From a virus (Duplodnaviria > Heunggongvirae > Uroviricota > Caudoviricetes), in the IMG/VR virus record IMGVR_UViG_2778261693_000003: DNA of 17,858 bases; one strand, 5' to 3'. This document shows positions 10,441 through 15,846 of the stretch, in pieces. Made by a program: the position numbers and the translations under genes. The notes below the pieces were generated by a model, which saw nothing but the letters and a program-made list of their open reading frames with translations, made no database searches and was not told where the DNA came from. Positions within the stretch are counted from its first letter, which is position 1. Each line of letters begins with the position of its first letter.

Positions 10441-10731
10441 TTAGTGATTGAGGCCGTTACCGCGTCCGTCGAGAAAAACTTCCACGAGCAAATCACGGGT
10501 ATAAGTGCGCTCGATGCCGCGATGCAGATAAAGCCGTCCGCGTAAATTAGCTGATGCAGTCCAGGTACCATCTTTGTGTTTGACCAGCATGCCTGGCATG
10601 ACCGCACCGCGATTAACGGTCTGCGTTCCGTAATGTTGATGAACCATAAAAACTCCTGCCCGTAAGCTGGGCTGCTGAACATATAGAGACTTCTGCGCGT
10701 ATTCAGGCGGTGGATGGCCGCCGGTTGTCAT
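10441..10731 (-). CDS. Hypothetical protein at the lambda kil position (96 aa; alternative start at 10647 gives 68 aa)
   Basis: First ORF downstream of pL on the leftward strand, ending 76 nt before gam. ATG at 10731 has GAGG 10 nt upstream; ATG at 10647 has AGGAG 5 nt upstream. Sequence is unrelated to lambda Kil as I remember it. Confidence 0.5.
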
Positions 10732-10868
10732 AACTAAGCCGCCTCGTTGAAGCGACTGAGGTATAAAGTGTTGTGTTGATTTCAGCTGGTCACACCGACG
10801 TTCACGCGTCCGTTTCACCCCTCGCACTCCCCGAAGCCTGCTGAAATTCAAACTGCGGATCTAAGCGG

Positions 10869-10920
10869 TCATCGCAACGGTGAAACAGGTGGTTATCGTA
10901 TCGTTGTGTCGTTGCGATGA
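10869..10920 (-). promoter_or_regulatory. Perfect 11-bp inverted repeat (TCATCGCAACG / CGTTGCGATGA) with a 30-nt loop, in the pL leader
   Basis: Read directly from the sequence. Lies just downstream of the putative pL -10 on the leftward transcript; no U-tract follows, so it is not an intrinsic terminator. Confidence 0.5.
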
Positions 10921-10924
10921 ATTT

Positions 10925-10990
10925 ATTTAAAACTATAGTTGTTTTATCGTCAACAACAAAAGTTGTTTTATCGGTTGTTTTTAATATAAC
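10925..10990 (-). promoter_or_regulatory. Putative OL/pL: leftward promoter with an array of GTTGTT/AACAAC operator half-sites
   Basis: Minus strand reads TTGACG, 17 nt, TTAAAT, embedded in repeated AAAACAAC/GTTGTT motifs. A near-identical promoter-operator segment occurs at OR (12469-12504). Confidence 0.55.
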
Positions 10991-11090: not shown

Positions 11091-11119
11091 GGAAAAGAAA
11101 ACCCGGCGCGGTTGCCGGG
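11091..11119 (-). terminator. Rho-independent terminator downstream of the lipoprotein gene (minus strand)
   Basis: Minus strand: stem CCCGGC / loop AACCGC / stem GCCGGG followed by TTTTCTTTTCC, 9 nt after the stop codon. Confidence 0.7.
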
Positions 11120-11127
11120 TATGATTA

Positions 11128-11508
11128 TCAGTCAGCCCAACCTGATTTCGAGTTTATTTGGGTTTCTGACATTGTGTATTTCTTAATCGTGTCATCGTTA
11201 AAAAGAATAGTAAGTTCTTTTTTCGTACCGTTCGTTCCATTATGGAATAATCCATAGAATGGAATAAAAGTGGTGCCATTCACTTTTACTTTTGCAAAGG
11301 CGTACTTCCAGATCTCGTTTCCACTGTCAGTATATGAAACAGCATCAGGAGAACCAAAGTAAGATTTAACCTCATTCTTGGTTGTTTTACCTTCCTGAAG
11401 TTTAGACTGGACACTAATTTCAGTTTCATTTTTGAGTTGCTGGTTGTCTGAAGAAGCACACCCAGCCAATACAGATGCCATCATGGCAGCGATTAGGATT
11501 TTTCTCAT
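11128..11508 (-). CDS. Lipoprotein (lipobox LAGC), 126 aa, at the rexAB/sieB position of the immunity region
   Basis: Signal peptide MRKILIAAMMASVLAGC with a lipobox cysteine. AT-rich gene with a TATAAT hexamer about 15 nt upstream of the ATG and its own terminator. Mature part loosely resembles small BamE/SmpA-OmlA-like lipoproteins. Confidence 0.8.
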   Translation of the reverse strand: MRKILIAAMMASVLAGCASSDNQQLKNETEISVQSKLQEGKTTKNEVKSYFGSPDAVSYTDSGNEIWKYAFAKVKVNGTTFIPFYGLFHNGTNGTKKELTILFNDDTIKKYTMSETQINSKSGWAD

Positions 11509-11737: not shown

Positions 11738-12427
11738 TTAACCATGCTTCCTGTACGTCTGCGGCATGCTTCCAATGACCTTACCGAATATGAACACCCG
11801 GTTCATCTCGTCTTTCTCGATCGGGTCCCACGGCGAGTAGCTCTTGTTATCAGAGATAACCAGCAGCTTATCCTTCATCATTTGAAGACGTTTTACATGG
11901 GCAGTGTCGTCGTACAGAAACGCATAGATGCCATCACCGTCGAAAGATTTAACAGTGATATCAACGAACAGCAGGTCACCTGGTTCGATCGTCCCTGACA
12001 TGCTGTCACCTCGCACGTTAATGATGCGGATATTTTCCGCCTTCCTGCCATCGAACATGTGACGAGCATCGTCAAACGAGTACTCAACCGAGCGTAGAAC
12101 TTCTACAAACTCACGGTTGATTACACCTGGCCCGGCACTGACTTCTATATCAAGAACGTCAATTTTGAAGTATTTGGAATGGCTGACAGTTGATTGTATT
12201 GGTTGCACTGTACTGTCTGACATATTTCCAACGCCAGAAGATAACCATTCTGCGCGTACACCCAAAGCGTTCGCGATCTCCACGATTTTAGTTGTTTGGT
12301 TAGCTTTCCCTGTTTCGATTTTCTGAATAGCAGCCTGGCTAACCCCGACCAAATCCCCAAGCGCCTTTTGTGTAAGGCCTCGCGCTAATCTGGCTTCTTT
12401 AAGTCTTTCTGAGAGTGTTGTTTTCAT
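11738..12427 (-). CDS. cI: cI-type prophage repressor (N-terminal HTH, C-terminal S24 LexA-like peptidase), 229 aa
   Basis: HTH segment LTQKALGDLVGVSQAAIQKIETG, C-terminal autocleavage-domain motifs (VRGDSMSGTIEPGDLLFVD, catalytic Lys in HVKRL). Divergent from cro across an operator region. Confidence 0.88.
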   Translation of the reverse strand: MKTTLSERLKEARLARGLTQKALGDLVGVSQAAIQKIETGKANQTTKIVEIANALGVRAEWLSSGVGNMSDSTVQPIQSTVSHSKYFKIDVLDIEVSAGPGVINREFVEVLRSVEYSFDDARHMFDGRKAENIRIINVRGDSMSGTIEPGDLLFVDITVKSFDGDGIYAFLYDDTAHVKRLQMMKDKLLVISDNKSYSPWDPIEKDEMNRVFIFGKVIGSMPQTYRKHG

Positions 12428-12531
12428 AGATCAAATGTACAACCAAGGTTTTATTTCATCAAACGAAAATGGTTGTTGACTAAAAACAACCATAGTTTTA
12501 ATCTTGATTCGGATTAACCGCGGAGGTTGTT
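12428..12531. promoter_or_regulatory. Putative OR with divergent promoters PRM (leftward, cI) and PR (rightward, cro)
   Basis: 25-bp palindrome ATGGTTGTTGACTAAAAACAACCAT at 12469-12493 overlaps a TTGACT -35 hexamer for PR. On the minus strand, TTGATG, 17 nt, TACATT sits 6 nt from the cI ATG, which has no SD sequence. Confidence 0.55.
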
Positions 12532-12762
12532 ATGAACCCAGCAATCAAAACAGCGATCAATATCGTTGGTTCACAAAAGAAACTAGGCGATGCCTGCGAA
12601 GTTTCACAGCAGGCCGTCTATAAGTGGCTTCACAACAAAGCAAAGGTATCCCCTGAACATGTCGGCAGCATTGTTACGGCTACTGGTGGAGTTGTGAAGG
12701 CATACCAGATTCGCCCGGATCTTCCGAAGTTGTTTCCACACACCGAAAAGAACGCAGCTTAA
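12532..12762 (+). CDS. cro: Cro-like HTH regulator, 76 aa
   Basis: GGAGG 6 nt upstream of the ATG. Small HTH protein (GSQKKLGDACEVSQQAVYKWL) divergent from cI. Confidence 0.75.
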   Translation: MNPAIKTAINIVGSQKKLGDACEVSQQAVYKWLHNKAKVSPEHVGSIVTATGGVVKAYQIRPDLPKLFPHTEKNAA

Positions 12763-12774
12763 ATTTCCATTTCA

Positions 12775-12787
12775 CGCTCTTTAACAA
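12775..12787 (+). promoter_or_regulatory. boxA-like element CGCTCTTTAACAA
   Basis: Matches the antitermination boxA consensus (GCTCTTTAACAA) and sits at the nutR position just after cro. No convincing boxB hairpin follows. Confidence 0.4.
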
Positions 12788-12831
12788 TAAGCAATCAACT
12801 TAACAGTCAATTCAAACTAAAGGAGTCAATT

Positions 12832-13371
12832 ATGCAACCACTTACATACCAACAGACTAGCGAATTTATTCCGACTGCGGTGATAAATCGTTCTCAAACA
12901 AAACAAGCTCCAGGCCACGAAAAAATCCGTGATGCCGTCCGCGCCTGGTCGGCTGTAGATAATCAGGATGTCGTTGCCGCACTCATTGTGAATGAGTATC
13001 GGGAGCAGGGCGACGGCACCATCGATTTCCCTGATGATGTCAGCCGTGCACGCCAGAAGCTGTTCCGCTTCCTCGATAACAAATTCGATTCTGAAAAATA
13101 CCGAAATAACGTGCGTGAACTGACCCCGGCAATTCTGGCGGTACTACCGCTGGAATATCGCGGTTACCTGGTTGAGCAGGATAGCTTCATGACTCGGTTG
13201 GCTGAAATGGAAAAGGAACTCAGTGAGGCAAAACAGGCTGTCATTCTCAACGCACCACGCCACCAGAAACTGAAGGAAATGAGTGAAGGTATTGTGTCGA
13301 TGTTTCGTGTGGACCCGGATCTGGCTGGTCCATTAATGGCGATGGTGACCACCATGCTGGGGGCAATATGA
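12832..13371 (+). CDS. cII-position regulatory protein, possibly YdaT-family, 179 aa
   Basis: AAGGAG 6 nt upstream of the ATG. Occupies the cII position between cro and O. The YdaT-like assignment rests on a remembered motif (LTPAILAVLPLEYRGYL) and is tentative. Confidence 0.6.
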   Translation: MQPLTYQQTSEFIPTAVINRSQTKQAPGHEKIRDAVRAWSAVDNQDVVAALIVNEYREQGDGTIDFPDDVSRARQKLFRFLDNKFDSEKYRNNVRELTPAILAVLPLEYRGYLVEQDSFMTRLAEMEKELSEAKQAVILNAPRHQKLKEMSEGIVSMFRVDPDLAGPLMAMVTTMLGAI

Positions 13372-15814: not shown

Positions 15815-15846
15815 GAGGCTCTTATATTTATATGAGCCTCGTTTTA
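15815..15846 (+). terminator. Rho-independent terminator after emrE
   Basis: Stem GAGGCTC (15815-15821), 12-nt loop, stem GAGCCTC (15834-15840), then GTTTTAT. Confidence 0.65.

What the first reader, a model, noticed from the sequence alone, without database searches (positions are those of the whole stretch)
12763..12831. boxA-like sequence at the nutR position without a boxB hairpin
CGCTCTTTAACAA at 12775-12787, 13 nt after the cro stop, matches the boxA consensus used in N-dependent and rRNA-operon antitermination. The remaining 45 nt before the next gene's RBS contain no GC-rich boxB-type stem-loop. Together with the absence of an N gene near pL, this suggests host-factor (NusB/NusE) or non-N antitermination.
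Basis: partly seen in the sequence, partly recalled or inferred. Interest (0 to 1): 0.45.

Follow-up and report, generated by a model that had tools for sequence, protein, structure and literature searches.

The report
Orphan boxA left from nutR
A perfect host Nus-factor binding motif (boxA) sits just after the cro gene of a very common E. coli prophage, but it is most likely the leftover half of a lambda-type antitermination site whose hairpin partner and N protein have been lost, not the phage's own antitermination device.

Summary
CGCTCTTTAACAA is at 12775-12787, 12 nt after the cro stop. It is the only copy in the window and in the near-identical 48-kb phage PhiR26_1, and it fits the functional boxA consensus GYTCTTTAANA. 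The next 44 nt do not fold. No N gene, second nut site or HK022-type put RNA was found.

Comparison explains the motif. Cro homologues in eight other Enterobacterales genomes are followed at the same position by boxA plus a GC hairpin (boxB). Several of these also carry a matching boxA+boxB left of cI and an arginine-rich N gene. The window has lost boxB, nutL and N.

Sibling phages with the same pL leader, the same YdaT-type cII-like gene and the same downstream genes carry a different cro. They have no boxA between int and Q, and they are isolated phages. So boxA travels with the immunity module and is not needed by this backbone.

The 13 nt are no more conserved than the rest of the spacer. 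Three variants were seen, including a boxA5-like G>T.

Most likely this is a vestigial half of nutR. It should still bind NusB-NusE and may modulate Rho action or translation of the cII-like gene. Interest is low to moderate.

The parts
12476..12504 (+). Inferred pR promoter (TTGACT, 17 nt, TAATCT) with operator repeats (AAAACAAC...) between the divergent cI and cro genes. The boxA lies on this transcript, about 265 nt from the start.
   Evidence: Read from the sequence. The same operator/promoter pattern is seen at pL and in the pL of UPF_BP1 and L091. The consensus scanner did not list it, so this is an inference.
12532..12762 (+). cro gene, 76 aa, YdaS-family helix-turn-helix protein.
   Evidence: Pfam YdaS_toxin 6.6e-17 and P22_Cro 7e-5. 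PHROG 35 transcriptional repressor. Annotated Cro in PhiR26_1.
12763..12831 (+). The 69-nt cro-to-ydaT spacer. It is unstructured, G-poor and C-rich (14 C and 3 G in the first 58 nt), and it belongs to the cro immunity module.
   Evidence: The homology break with 4A7-type siblings lies at the ydaT ATG.
12775..12787 (+). Orphan boxA, CGCTCTTTAACAA. It is an exact match to GYTCTTTAANA and is rrn-type (…UUUAACAA).
   Evidence: Homologous boxA sequences sit at the same place in 8 of 14 cro relatives.
12820..12825 (+). Shine-Dalgarno sequence AAGGAG of the YdaT-type gene, 6 nt before the ATG.
12832..13371 (+). YdaT-family 'CII-like' gene, 179 aa. Its start codon is 44 nt after the end of boxA.
   Evidence: Pfam YdaT_toxin 4.2e-30. 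PHROG 163 CII-like activator. Distant match to PDB 8bt1 YdaT.
11738..12427 (-). cI-type repressor (HTH plus S24 peptidase domain).
10925..10953 (-). Inferred pL promoter (TTGACG, 17 nt, TTAAAT) with operators like those at pR.
   Evidence: Sequence. Similar pL sequences in UPF_BP1 and L091.
10648..10918 (-). pL leader of about 270 nt. It is non-coding and has no boxA, no boxB, no put motif and no N gene. The first gene after it is kil (10441-10647).
   Evidence: PHROG 294 Kil match.
15815..15846 (+). Intrinsic-terminator-like hairpin (GAGGCUC...GAGCCUC followed by GUUUUAU) after the emrE-like moron in the rightward operon.
   Evidence: -14 kcal/mol, z = -3.5.

Best explanation
The motif is a true boxA. 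It is the 5' half of a lambda-type nutR site that is inherited together with this YdaS-family cro immunity module.

In the ancestral arrangement, cro is followed by boxA, a boxB hairpin, a second hairpin and a lambda-type cII. A matching nutL and an N gene lie downstream of pL. This arrangement is still present in relatives from other Enterobacterales.

In the E. coli lineage of this window, the segment after boxA now runs directly into a YdaT-type cII-like gene. boxB and the tR1-like hairpin are gone. The pL side carries a different non-coding leader with no nutL, and there is no N gene. What remains is an orphan boxA.

Shown here: homology of position and sequence; absence of boxB, nutL, N and put; and dispensability for the phage backbone.

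Inferred: the sequence is an rrn-type consensus, so the nascent pR transcript should still bind NusB-NusE tightly and could load the host Nus complex. The consequence is probably nil or modulatory. It could shield the G-poor, C-rich spacer from Rho, or it could damp translation of the cII-like gene as at suhB. It is not the phage's main antitermination device.
For: - The motif is exact and unique.
- 8 of 14 cro homologues (63-86% aa identity) from other genera have boxA 7-24 nt after the cro stop. It is followed by a GC hairpin and then a roughly 100-aa cII-like gene in most of them.
- L090, L092, L094 and L096 carry a second boxA plus a similar boxB-type hairpin on the other strand left of cI, followed by Arg-rich N ORFs. 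L097 also has left-strand boxA copies and an N ORF, but its left hairpin differs from its nutR hairpin. Three of the N ORFs match Pfam N_peptide, one of them above the curated cut-off.
- The window lacks boxB, nutL, N and put.
- Among 80 IMG/VR loci with the same YdaT gene (96-100% aa identity), 43 have this cro plus boxA. The other 37 have a 4A7-type cro with a 30-nt spacer and no boxA.
- 4A7 shares the pL leader and the downstream genes, and has no GCTCTTTA from int to Q.
- Both types exist as isolated phages.
- Among 74 distinct sequence contexts there are 3 substitution events in the 13-nt boxA. Two of them break the consensus, and one equals lambda boxA5 (G>U). The other 56 nt show about 9 events.
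- rrn-type boxA binds NusB:NusE at 5-8 nM, against about 90 nM for lambda nutR. boxA5 weakens binding (PMC2800207).
Against: - The boxA is still a perfect 13/13 match, although everything else of the nut system is gone. The cro-boxA-ydaT junction is present in 1515 of 5426 complete E. coli genomes. Both facts would also fit maintenance by selection.
- The E. coli copies are 97-100% identical, so the constraint test has little power.
- No intermediate form was found in E. coli, that is, the same cro with boxB and a lambda-type cII.
- boxA lies 44 nt before a start codon. This is the geometry in which boxA-only elements are known to be functional (suhB and a ParE-like toxin; PMC5725501).
- The spacer is the only C>G stretch of the early pR transcript, so a Rho-related role is plausible.
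- The phage's real early antitermination mechanism is unknown.
Confidence: 0.6

Rival explanations
1. The site is a functional, N-independent, rrn-style antitermination site. NusB-NusE bind the boxA on the pR transcript. NusA, NusG and SuhB then assemble on RNA polymerase and make it resistant to Rho through ydaT-O-P and beyond.
For: - The motif is a perfect rrn-type consensus, and rrn-type boxA has nanomolar affinity for NusB:NusE.
- There is no N and no put RNA, so some other mechanism must exist.
- The spacer is G-poor, C-rich and unstructured, like a rut site, and boxA sits inside it.
- The arrangement is very common in E. coli.
- A Serratia prophage (L091) with the same operator family has a consensus boxA about 45 nt into its pL leader, with no obvious boxB or N.
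Against: - Sibling phages with the same backbone lack any boxA from int to Q.
- There is no boxA on the pL transcript.
- The obstacles detected downstream are intrinsic terminators. rrn-type complexes suppress these poorly (established knowledge).
- No boxC-like element follows the boxA.
- Natural variants that break the consensus exist.
Confidence: 0.15
2. The site is a suhB-type BoxA repressor. Nus-factor loading at boxA keeps the ribosome off the ydaT Shine-Dalgarno sequence. This lowers production of the CII-like protein and allows Rho-dependent polarity. The lysis-lysogeny choice of this immunity type would then depend on Nus-factor availability.
For: - The motif matches GYTCTTTAANA and lies within 50 nt of a start codon. 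These are the criteria of Baniulyte et al. 2017.
- In that work, repression persisted when boxA was moved up to 100 nt from the Shine-Dalgarno sequence, and a ParE-like toxin gene was a second validated target (PMC5725501).
- There is a C>G, rut-like region around and after boxA.
- The boxA belongs to the immunity module, where tuning of a cII-like gene would make sense.
Against: - Other YdaT-type junctions (4A7, HK639, L089, L093) have no boxA.
- There is no detectable constraint on the motif.
- Polarity on O and P would cost the phage replication.
- No experimental data exist.
Confidence: 0.15
3. The site is a working N-dependent nutR whose boxB and N have simply not been recognised.
For: N proteins and boxB hairpins are highly diverse. 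A minority spacer variant with a 12-nt insertion does form a hairpin with a 5-bp stem and 5-nt loop, GACUG-AUUAA-CAGUC, 19 nt after boxA.
Against: - The window's own spacer does not fold.
- No element is shared between the pL and pR transcripts, and there is no boxA on the pL side.
- No Arg-rich N ORF exists. The only ARM-like frame (MKRTRERR, from GTG 10818) shows no third-codon bias and is broken by 5-, 1- and 2-nt indels in relatives.
- No N is annotated in the whole PhiR26_1 genome.
Confidence: 0.03
4. The sequence is kept for a DNA-level reason: it is part of a YdaT operator or a leftward PRE-like promoter that overlaps the spacer. The resemblance to boxA would then be incidental to its present use.
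For: In CP-933P, YdaT protects about 95 bp spanning the end of ydaS and the ydaS-ydaT spacer, and it recognises TTGATT-N6-AATCAA (PMC9986795). Window 12781-12798, TTAACAATAAGCAATCAA, has a perfect right half-site and 3 of 6 matches in the left half, and it overlaps the 3' end of boxA.
Against: - The window's YdaT is only distantly related to the CP-933P protein (E = 5e-4), so its specificity is unknown.
- The same 13-mer is a boxA in relatives that have lambda-type cII rather than YdaT.
- 4A7-type siblings with the same YdaT have no such sequence.
Confidence: 0.05

Closest known systems
Lambda-type nutR (boxA + boxB) of N-dependent lambdoid phages, as in lambda, P22 and phage 21, and as found here in the prophages L090, L092, L094-L097, L099 and L100
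   Same: The position is the same: 7-24 nt after the cro stop, on the pR transcript, before the cII-type gene. The boxA sequence is the same: CGCTCTTTAACAA is identical to the nutL boxA of L090, L092, L094 and L096 and to the nutR boxA of L097. The Cro family and the operator/promoter family are the same.
   Different: The window has no boxB hairpin, no second hairpin (tR1-like), no nutL and no N gene. The downstream gene is a YdaT-type rather than a lambda-type cII.
rrn operon leader boxA (UGCUCUUUAACAA), the NusB/NusE/NusA/NusG/SuhB antitermination complex
   Same: 12 of 13 nt are identical, the full GYTCTTTAANA consensus is present, and no phage protein is needed.
   Different: The rrn boxA sits in an untranslated, structured rRNA leader flanked by boxB and boxC. 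Here it lies between two translated genes with no boxC. Dependence on Nus factors was not tested.
suhB 5'-UTR BoxA and the C. koseri ParE-like toxin BoxA (Baniulyte et al. 2017, PMC5725501)
   Same: It is a boxA-only element within 50 nt upstream of a start codon, in a pyrimidine-rich, G-poor leader that could double as a rut site.
   Different: Those elements are conserved across orthologous loci, and repression was shown experimentally. Here the element is absent from other YdaT-type junctions, and nothing has been tested.
HK022 / HK639 put antiterminator RNAs (N-independent lambdoid antitermination)
   Same: The phage has no N. The architecture is HK639-like: YdaS-type cro, YdaT-type cII-like gene and kil-gam-bet. 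The pL promoter/operator resembles that of the put-carrying phage UPF_BP1.
   Different: No put motif or structure occurs anywhere in the window or in 4A7. The covariance-model search gave a best score of 8.9 bits, against 74-92 bits for true put RNAs.

Membership tests
Lambda-type nut site (N-utilisation site) | A boxA consensus on the early transcript, just downstream of cro. | tested here: met
   CGCTCTTTAACAA at 12775-12787, 12 nt after the cro stop.
Lambda-type nut site (N-utilisation site) | A boxB stem-loop a few nucleotides 3' of boxA. | tested here: not met
   MFE -4.1 kcal/mol, z = +0.41. The hairpin scan found none before 13056. Relatives have the hairpin 6-22 nt after boxA.
Lambda-type nut site (N-utilisation site) | A second, matching site (nutL) on the pL transcript. 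| tested here: not met
   There is no GCTCTT-type boxA on the minus strand downstream of pL. Only scattered 9-10-nt matches (nothing nut-like) link the pL transcript to the first 2.9 kb of the pR transcript.
Lambda-type nut site (N-utilisation site) | A cognate N protein with an arginine-rich motif, encoded early on pL. | tested here: not met
   Pfam and PHROG give no N. tblastn with N proteins has best E = 0.09. The ARM-like frame in the leader is not coding. None is annotated in PhiR26_1.
rrn-type, N-independent Nus-factor antitermination site | A boxA matching GYTCTTTAANA. | tested here: met
   GCTCTTTAACA is an exact match. It differs from the rrn boxA only at the first base.
rrn-type, N-independent Nus-factor antitermination site | Flanking boxC (and boxB), in the leader of an untranslated operon. 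| tested here: not met
   No TGTGTG-type element lies within 12763-12900. The site sits between two ORFs.
rrn-type, N-independent Nus-factor antitermination site | Readthrough of Rho-dependent terminators that depends on NusB, NusE and SuhB. | not testable with these tools
   This needs reporter fusions or ChIP in nusB, nusE and suhB mutants.
suhB-type BoxA translational repressor / Rho attenuator | A consensus boxA within 50 nt upstream of the regulated start codon. | tested here: met
   boxA ends at 12787 and the ATG is at 12832. The criterion is from PMC5725501.
suhB-type BoxA translational repressor / Rho attenuator | Conservation of the boxA upstream of orthologous genes. | tested here: not met
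   37 of 80 loci with the same YdaT gene lack it. HK639, L089 and L093 also lack it.
suhB-type BoxA translational repressor / Rho attenuator | boxA- and NusB-dependent repression with Rho termination inside the gene. | not testable with these tools
   Only a C>G, rut-like composition could be shown.
HK022-type put antiterminator RNA | A two-stem RNA with the conserved GAACGG...AGGAWGA...CAAU core downstream of pL and pR. | tested here: not met
   The motif scan was negative. The covariance model built from 5 put RNAs found only hits of 9 bits or less in the window and 4A7, against 74-92 bits for true puts. Rfam has no hit.

The most novel reading that the evidence does not exclude
The orphan, rrn-strength boxA is kept because it loads the host Nus complex (NusB/E/A/G/SuhB) onto pR elongation complexes with no phage N protein. 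Either this makes the right early operon of a lambdoid phage Rho-resistant using host factors alone, or it couples translation of the CII-like YdaT to Nus-factor availability. It would then be a phage use of boxA-only regulation in a prophage family present in over a quarter of complete E. coli genomes.
Probability: 0.2. Interest if true: 0.6.

Novelty: new member of a known kind. Interest (0 to 1): 0.33.

Why it matters
BoxA-only Nus-factor sites outside rRNA operons are a recent and still short list: suhB and a ParE-like toxin. A consensus boxA sitting in front of the lysogeny-decision gene of one of the commonest E. coli prophage immunity types would be a cheap test case. The cro-boxA-ydaT junction occurs in 1515 of 5426 complete genomes. 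The test would show whether such sites act on phage transcripts without N.

More broadly, the comparison shows how an N-nut system decays piece by piece. It also exposes a gap: this large DLP12-like (Bievrevirus-like) phage group has no N, no nut pair and no put RNA, yet it has intrinsic terminators before Q. Its early antitermination mechanism is therefore unknown.

If the boxA is only a relic, as judged most likely, the finding is ordinary molecular archaeology.

Tried and rejected
- **Rfam.** The window (E <= 1) gave only tRNA-Arg and noise. HK022, HK639 and UPF_BP1 at gathering thresholds gave nothing, so Rfam does not detect put or nut elements in these phages.
- **A put-like RNA in the pL leader.** Blastn against HK022, a motif scan and a covariance model with filters off were all negative.
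- **A hidden N.** The frame from GTG 10818 (MKRTRERRCDQ...), in frame with kil and annotated as the 'Kil' start in PhiR26_1, looked ARM-like. The differences from 4A7 also seemed synonymous. With 52 unique relatives, substitutions fall 7/5/4 on codon positions 1/2/3, and 5-, 1- and 2-nt indels occur. By contrast kil itself, from ATG 10647, shows 18 of 29 changes at third positions. This idea was rejected.
- **tblastn with N proteins.** Queries were the ORFs found downstream of the relatives' nutL sites (real N proteins among them), plus lambda, P22 and phage 21 N and HK022 Nun. Nothing matched.
- **A shared element between pL and pR transcripts.** None was found.
- **A second copy of the pL leader elsewhere in PhiR26_1.** None was found.
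- **A YdaT operator reading of the motif.** There is only a half-site match, and the proteins are distantly related.
- **Covariation in the pL leader.** Only one-sided, wobble-compatible changes were seen.
- **King et al. 2011 (put-like RNAs, HK639).** The paper could not be retrieved.
- **Constraint test on boxA.** It is underpowered because the E. coli copies are 97-100% identical.
- **An E. coli intermediate.** A form with the same cro plus boxB and a lambda-type cII was not found in the phage collection. It was not searched exhaustively in genomes.

Full report
**Context.** The window is E. coli chromosome (sfm fimbrial genes, fimZ, tRNA-Arg at 5604-5677) followed by a prophage. The prophage has an integrase at 5696-6859. 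Its immunity region is 99.7% identical to the isolated phage PhiR26_1. About 95% identity extends to heteroimmune relatives such as phage 4A7, genus Bievrevirus.

The prophage map, is:
- int, then exo, bet, gam and kil (10441-10647, minus strand);
- a ~270-nt leader and pL (about 10953-10925, minus strand);
- a terminator, a BamE-like lipoprotein moron and cI (11738-12427, minus strand);
- pR, cro (12532-12762), the 69-nt spacer and a YdaT-family 'CII-like' gene (12832-13371);
- O, P, ren, an emrE-like moron and a serine recombinase.

**Observation.** CGCTCTTTAACAA lies at 12775-12787, 12 nt after the cro stop.
- It is the only match in the window even at two mismatches.
- It is the only exact match to the functional consensus GYTCTTTAANA. 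That consensus comes from Baniulyte et al. 2017 (PMC5725501).
- It is the only such site in the 48-kb PhiR26_1 genome.
- From base composition, the 13-mer is expected 6e-4 times per window and about 1e-6 times in the spacer.
- The RNA from 12755 to 12850 is unstructured: -4.1 kcal/mol, z = +0.41.
- A scan for perfect GC-rich hairpins finds nothing before 13056.

So both halves of the observation are correct: a boxA is present and a boxB is absent.

**No N, no nutL, no put.**
- The pL-side ORFs give no N family in Pfam or PHROGs.
- tblastn with ten N-type or candidate ORFs finds nothing better than E = 0.09.
- PhiR26_1 has no N annotated in its 62 features.
- An Arg-rich frame in the pL leader (MKRTRERR..., from GTG 10818) is not coding. 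Among 52 unique relatives, substitutions fall 7/5/4 on codon positions 1/2/3 and frame-breaking indels occur. By contrast kil shows 18 of 29 changes at third positions.
- No boxA-like sequence lies on the pL transcript.
- No nut-like element, only scattered 9-10-nt matches, is shared between the two early transcripts.
- The HK022-type put motif is present in HK022, HK639 and UPF_BP1 but absent here.
- A covariance model built from five put RNAs scores them at 74-92 bits. It scores nothing in the window or in 4A7 above 9 bits.

**What the boxA is.** Cro homologues (63-86% aa identity) were recovered from 14 other Enterobacterales genomes.

In eight of them the cro stop is followed within 7-24 nt by a boxA. 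These are Izhakiella, Erwinia tracheiphila, Xenorhabdus, Buttiauxella, Photorhabdus, Arsenophonus and two Rosenbergiella. The boxA sequences are CGCTCTTTAACAA or close variants. Each is followed by a GC-stem hairpin. In most there is then a second hairpin and a roughly 100-aa cII-like gene.

Several of these genomes carry a second boxA plus a hairpin on the opposite strand, left of cI. In L090, L092, L094 and L096 that hairpin resembles the nutR one, for example TATGCCGCGAGGTGTA at both sites in Photorhabdus. In L097 the left hairpin differs. These sites are followed by Arg-rich N ORFs of phage 21-like and P22-like types. Three of the ORFs match Pfam N_peptide, one above the curated cut-off.

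This is the canonical N-nut system. The window keeps only its boxA, at the homologous place.

**Is it needed?** The homology break between this phage and 4A7-type siblings lies at the ydaT start codon on the right. On the left it lies at the first bases of the pL transcript. The boxA therefore belongs to the immunity (cI-cro) module.

Among 80 IMG/VR loci with the same YdaT gene (96-100% aa identity), 43 have this cro plus boxA. The other 37 have the 4A7-type cro, a 30-nt spacer and no boxA. 4A7 has no GCTCTTTA anywhere from int to Q. Both kinds exist as isolated phages. The shared backbone therefore expresses its early and late genes without boxA.

The visible obstacles in the rightward operon are intrinsic terminators. 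One is the hairpin plus U-tract at window 15815-15846. Strong ones lie before Q in PhiR26_1. By established knowledge, boxA-only (rrn-type) complexes deal with Rho-dependent terminators and deal poorly with intrinsic ones.

**Constraint.** 74 distinct sequence contexts of the spacer were examined.
- The 13-nt boxA shows three substitution events: G>T (equivalent to lambda boxA5), C>T (consensus preserved; this is the suhB form) and A>G (TTTGACAA).
- The remaining 56 nt show about nine events.
- There is therefore no excess conservation of boxA. The copies are 97-100% identical, so power is low.

**Could it still do something?** Several facts leave this open.
- The motif is rrn-type. NusB:NusE bind rrnG boxA at 5-8 nM, against about 90 nM for lambda nutR. 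The boxA5 change weakens binding about fifty-fold (PMC2800207).
- It sits 44 nt before the ydaT start codon. BoxA-only elements at that distance repress translation and promote Rho termination at suhB and at a ParE-like toxin gene (PMC5725501).
- The region around the spacer, about 12711-12908, is the only C>G stretch of the early pR transcript. The first 58 nt of the spacer have 14 C and 3 G. This is rut-like, as at lambda tR1, where by established knowledge rutA includes boxA.
- The junction occurs in 1515 of 5426 complete E. coli genomes.
- A Serratia prophage (L091) with the same operator family has a consensus boxA near the start of its pL leader, with no obvious boxB or N.

These points keep a modulatory Nus-factor role alive. 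I put about 15% on the anti-Rho version and about 15% on the suhB-like version. They do not outweigh the comparative evidence.

**Other readings.**
- A DNA-level role, as a YdaT operator or PRE-like promoter, was considered. CP-933P YdaT protects the ydaS-ydaT spacer and recognises TTGATT-N6-AATCAA (PMC9986795). Window 12781-12798 has only one perfect half-site, and the two YdaT proteins are distant.
- An unrecognised N/boxB system is very unlikely, for the reasons given above.

**Verdict.** The motif is a real boxA, homologous to nutR boxA, now orphaned. It is best read as a vestige of an N-nut system carried with the cro module (confidence about 0.6). It is predicted to be biochemically competent for NusB-NusE binding, but it is not the phage's antitermination device. 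As boxA-only sites are already known, this is at most a new member of a known kind. Interest is about 0.33.

The more intriguing open point lies outside the finding. This abundant phage group has no N, no nut pair and no put RNA. It does have a conserved ~270-nt non-coding pL leader of unknown function.

Noticed in passing
window 10648-10918 (- strand): The pL leader is about 270 nt and non-coding. It is conserved from the first transcribed bases in heteroimmune siblings, but is found in only 16 phages of this group. It has a 10-bp hairpin at its 5' end, no put motif and no Rfam hit. Changes in predicted stems are one-sided and wobble-compatible only. It is a candidate for the unknown N-independent early antitermination or processing element of this phage group.
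   Followed up: partly
window 10706-10735 (- strand); L004 (HK639) about 1874-1905; L089 1611-1672: The block TTATGACAACCGGCGGCCATCCACCGCC contains the hairpin GGCGG-CCATCCA-CCGCC. It recurs in HK639, where it is annotated as a terminator, and in an Enterobacter prophage (97% identity over 62 nt). In both it lies just after an intrinsic terminator, in otherwise unrelated sequence.
   Followed up: partly
L002 (4A7) about 9020-9045; L004 about 6070-6090; L005 about 5220-5245; L087-L089; L006 about 2780-2800: Cro relatives that lack boxA have a short GC-rich hairpin straddling the cro stop codon (GCCGCC-TAA...-GCGGC). It is conserved across quite different cro sequences. Its function is unknown.
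   Followed up: no
L007, L008, L020, L022, L026, L033 (spacer after cro): A minority spacer variant carries a 12-nt insertion (ACTGATTAACAG) flanked by TTAACAG repeats. It creates a hairpin with a 5-bp stem and 5-nt loop, GACUG-AUUAA-CAGUC, 19 nt after boxA. The window's form could be a slippage deletion of it.
   Followed up: partly
L006 (Salmonella phage UPF_BP1) 1522-1598 (-) and 2807-2877 (+): This P22-like phage carries both putL- and putR-type RNAs (74-92 bits with the put model). They appear not to be annotated. Its pL promoter/operator closely resembles the window's.
   Followed up: partly
L091 (Serratia sp. Ag1) about 2170 (-) and the spacer after cro at about 4229: This is the mirror-image case. 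A consensus boxA lies about 45 nt into the pL leader with no obvious boxB or N ORF. The cro-cII spacer has only a degenerate boxA-like CGCTTAATAACAG.
   Followed up: partly
window 15815-15846 (+); PhiR26_1 record about 11842 and 12630-12675 (+): Intrinsic-terminator-like hairpins lie in the rightward operon between ren and Q, after moron genes. Reaching Q from pR should therefore need some antitermination mechanism or separate promoters.
   Followed up: partly
window 12804-12811 and 12823-12830: A direct repeat AGTCAATT, 19 bp apart, flanks the ydaT Shine-Dalgarno sequence. An AATCAA half-site lies at 12793. These are possible YdaT or other protein-binding sites, by analogy with the CP-933P YdaT operators.
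   Followed up: no
window 11128-11508 (-) and 11101-11120 (-): A BamE-like lipoprotein gene with its own terminator sits between cI and pL, in the position of lambda rexAB. It is a likely lysogenic-conversion moron.
   Followed up: no
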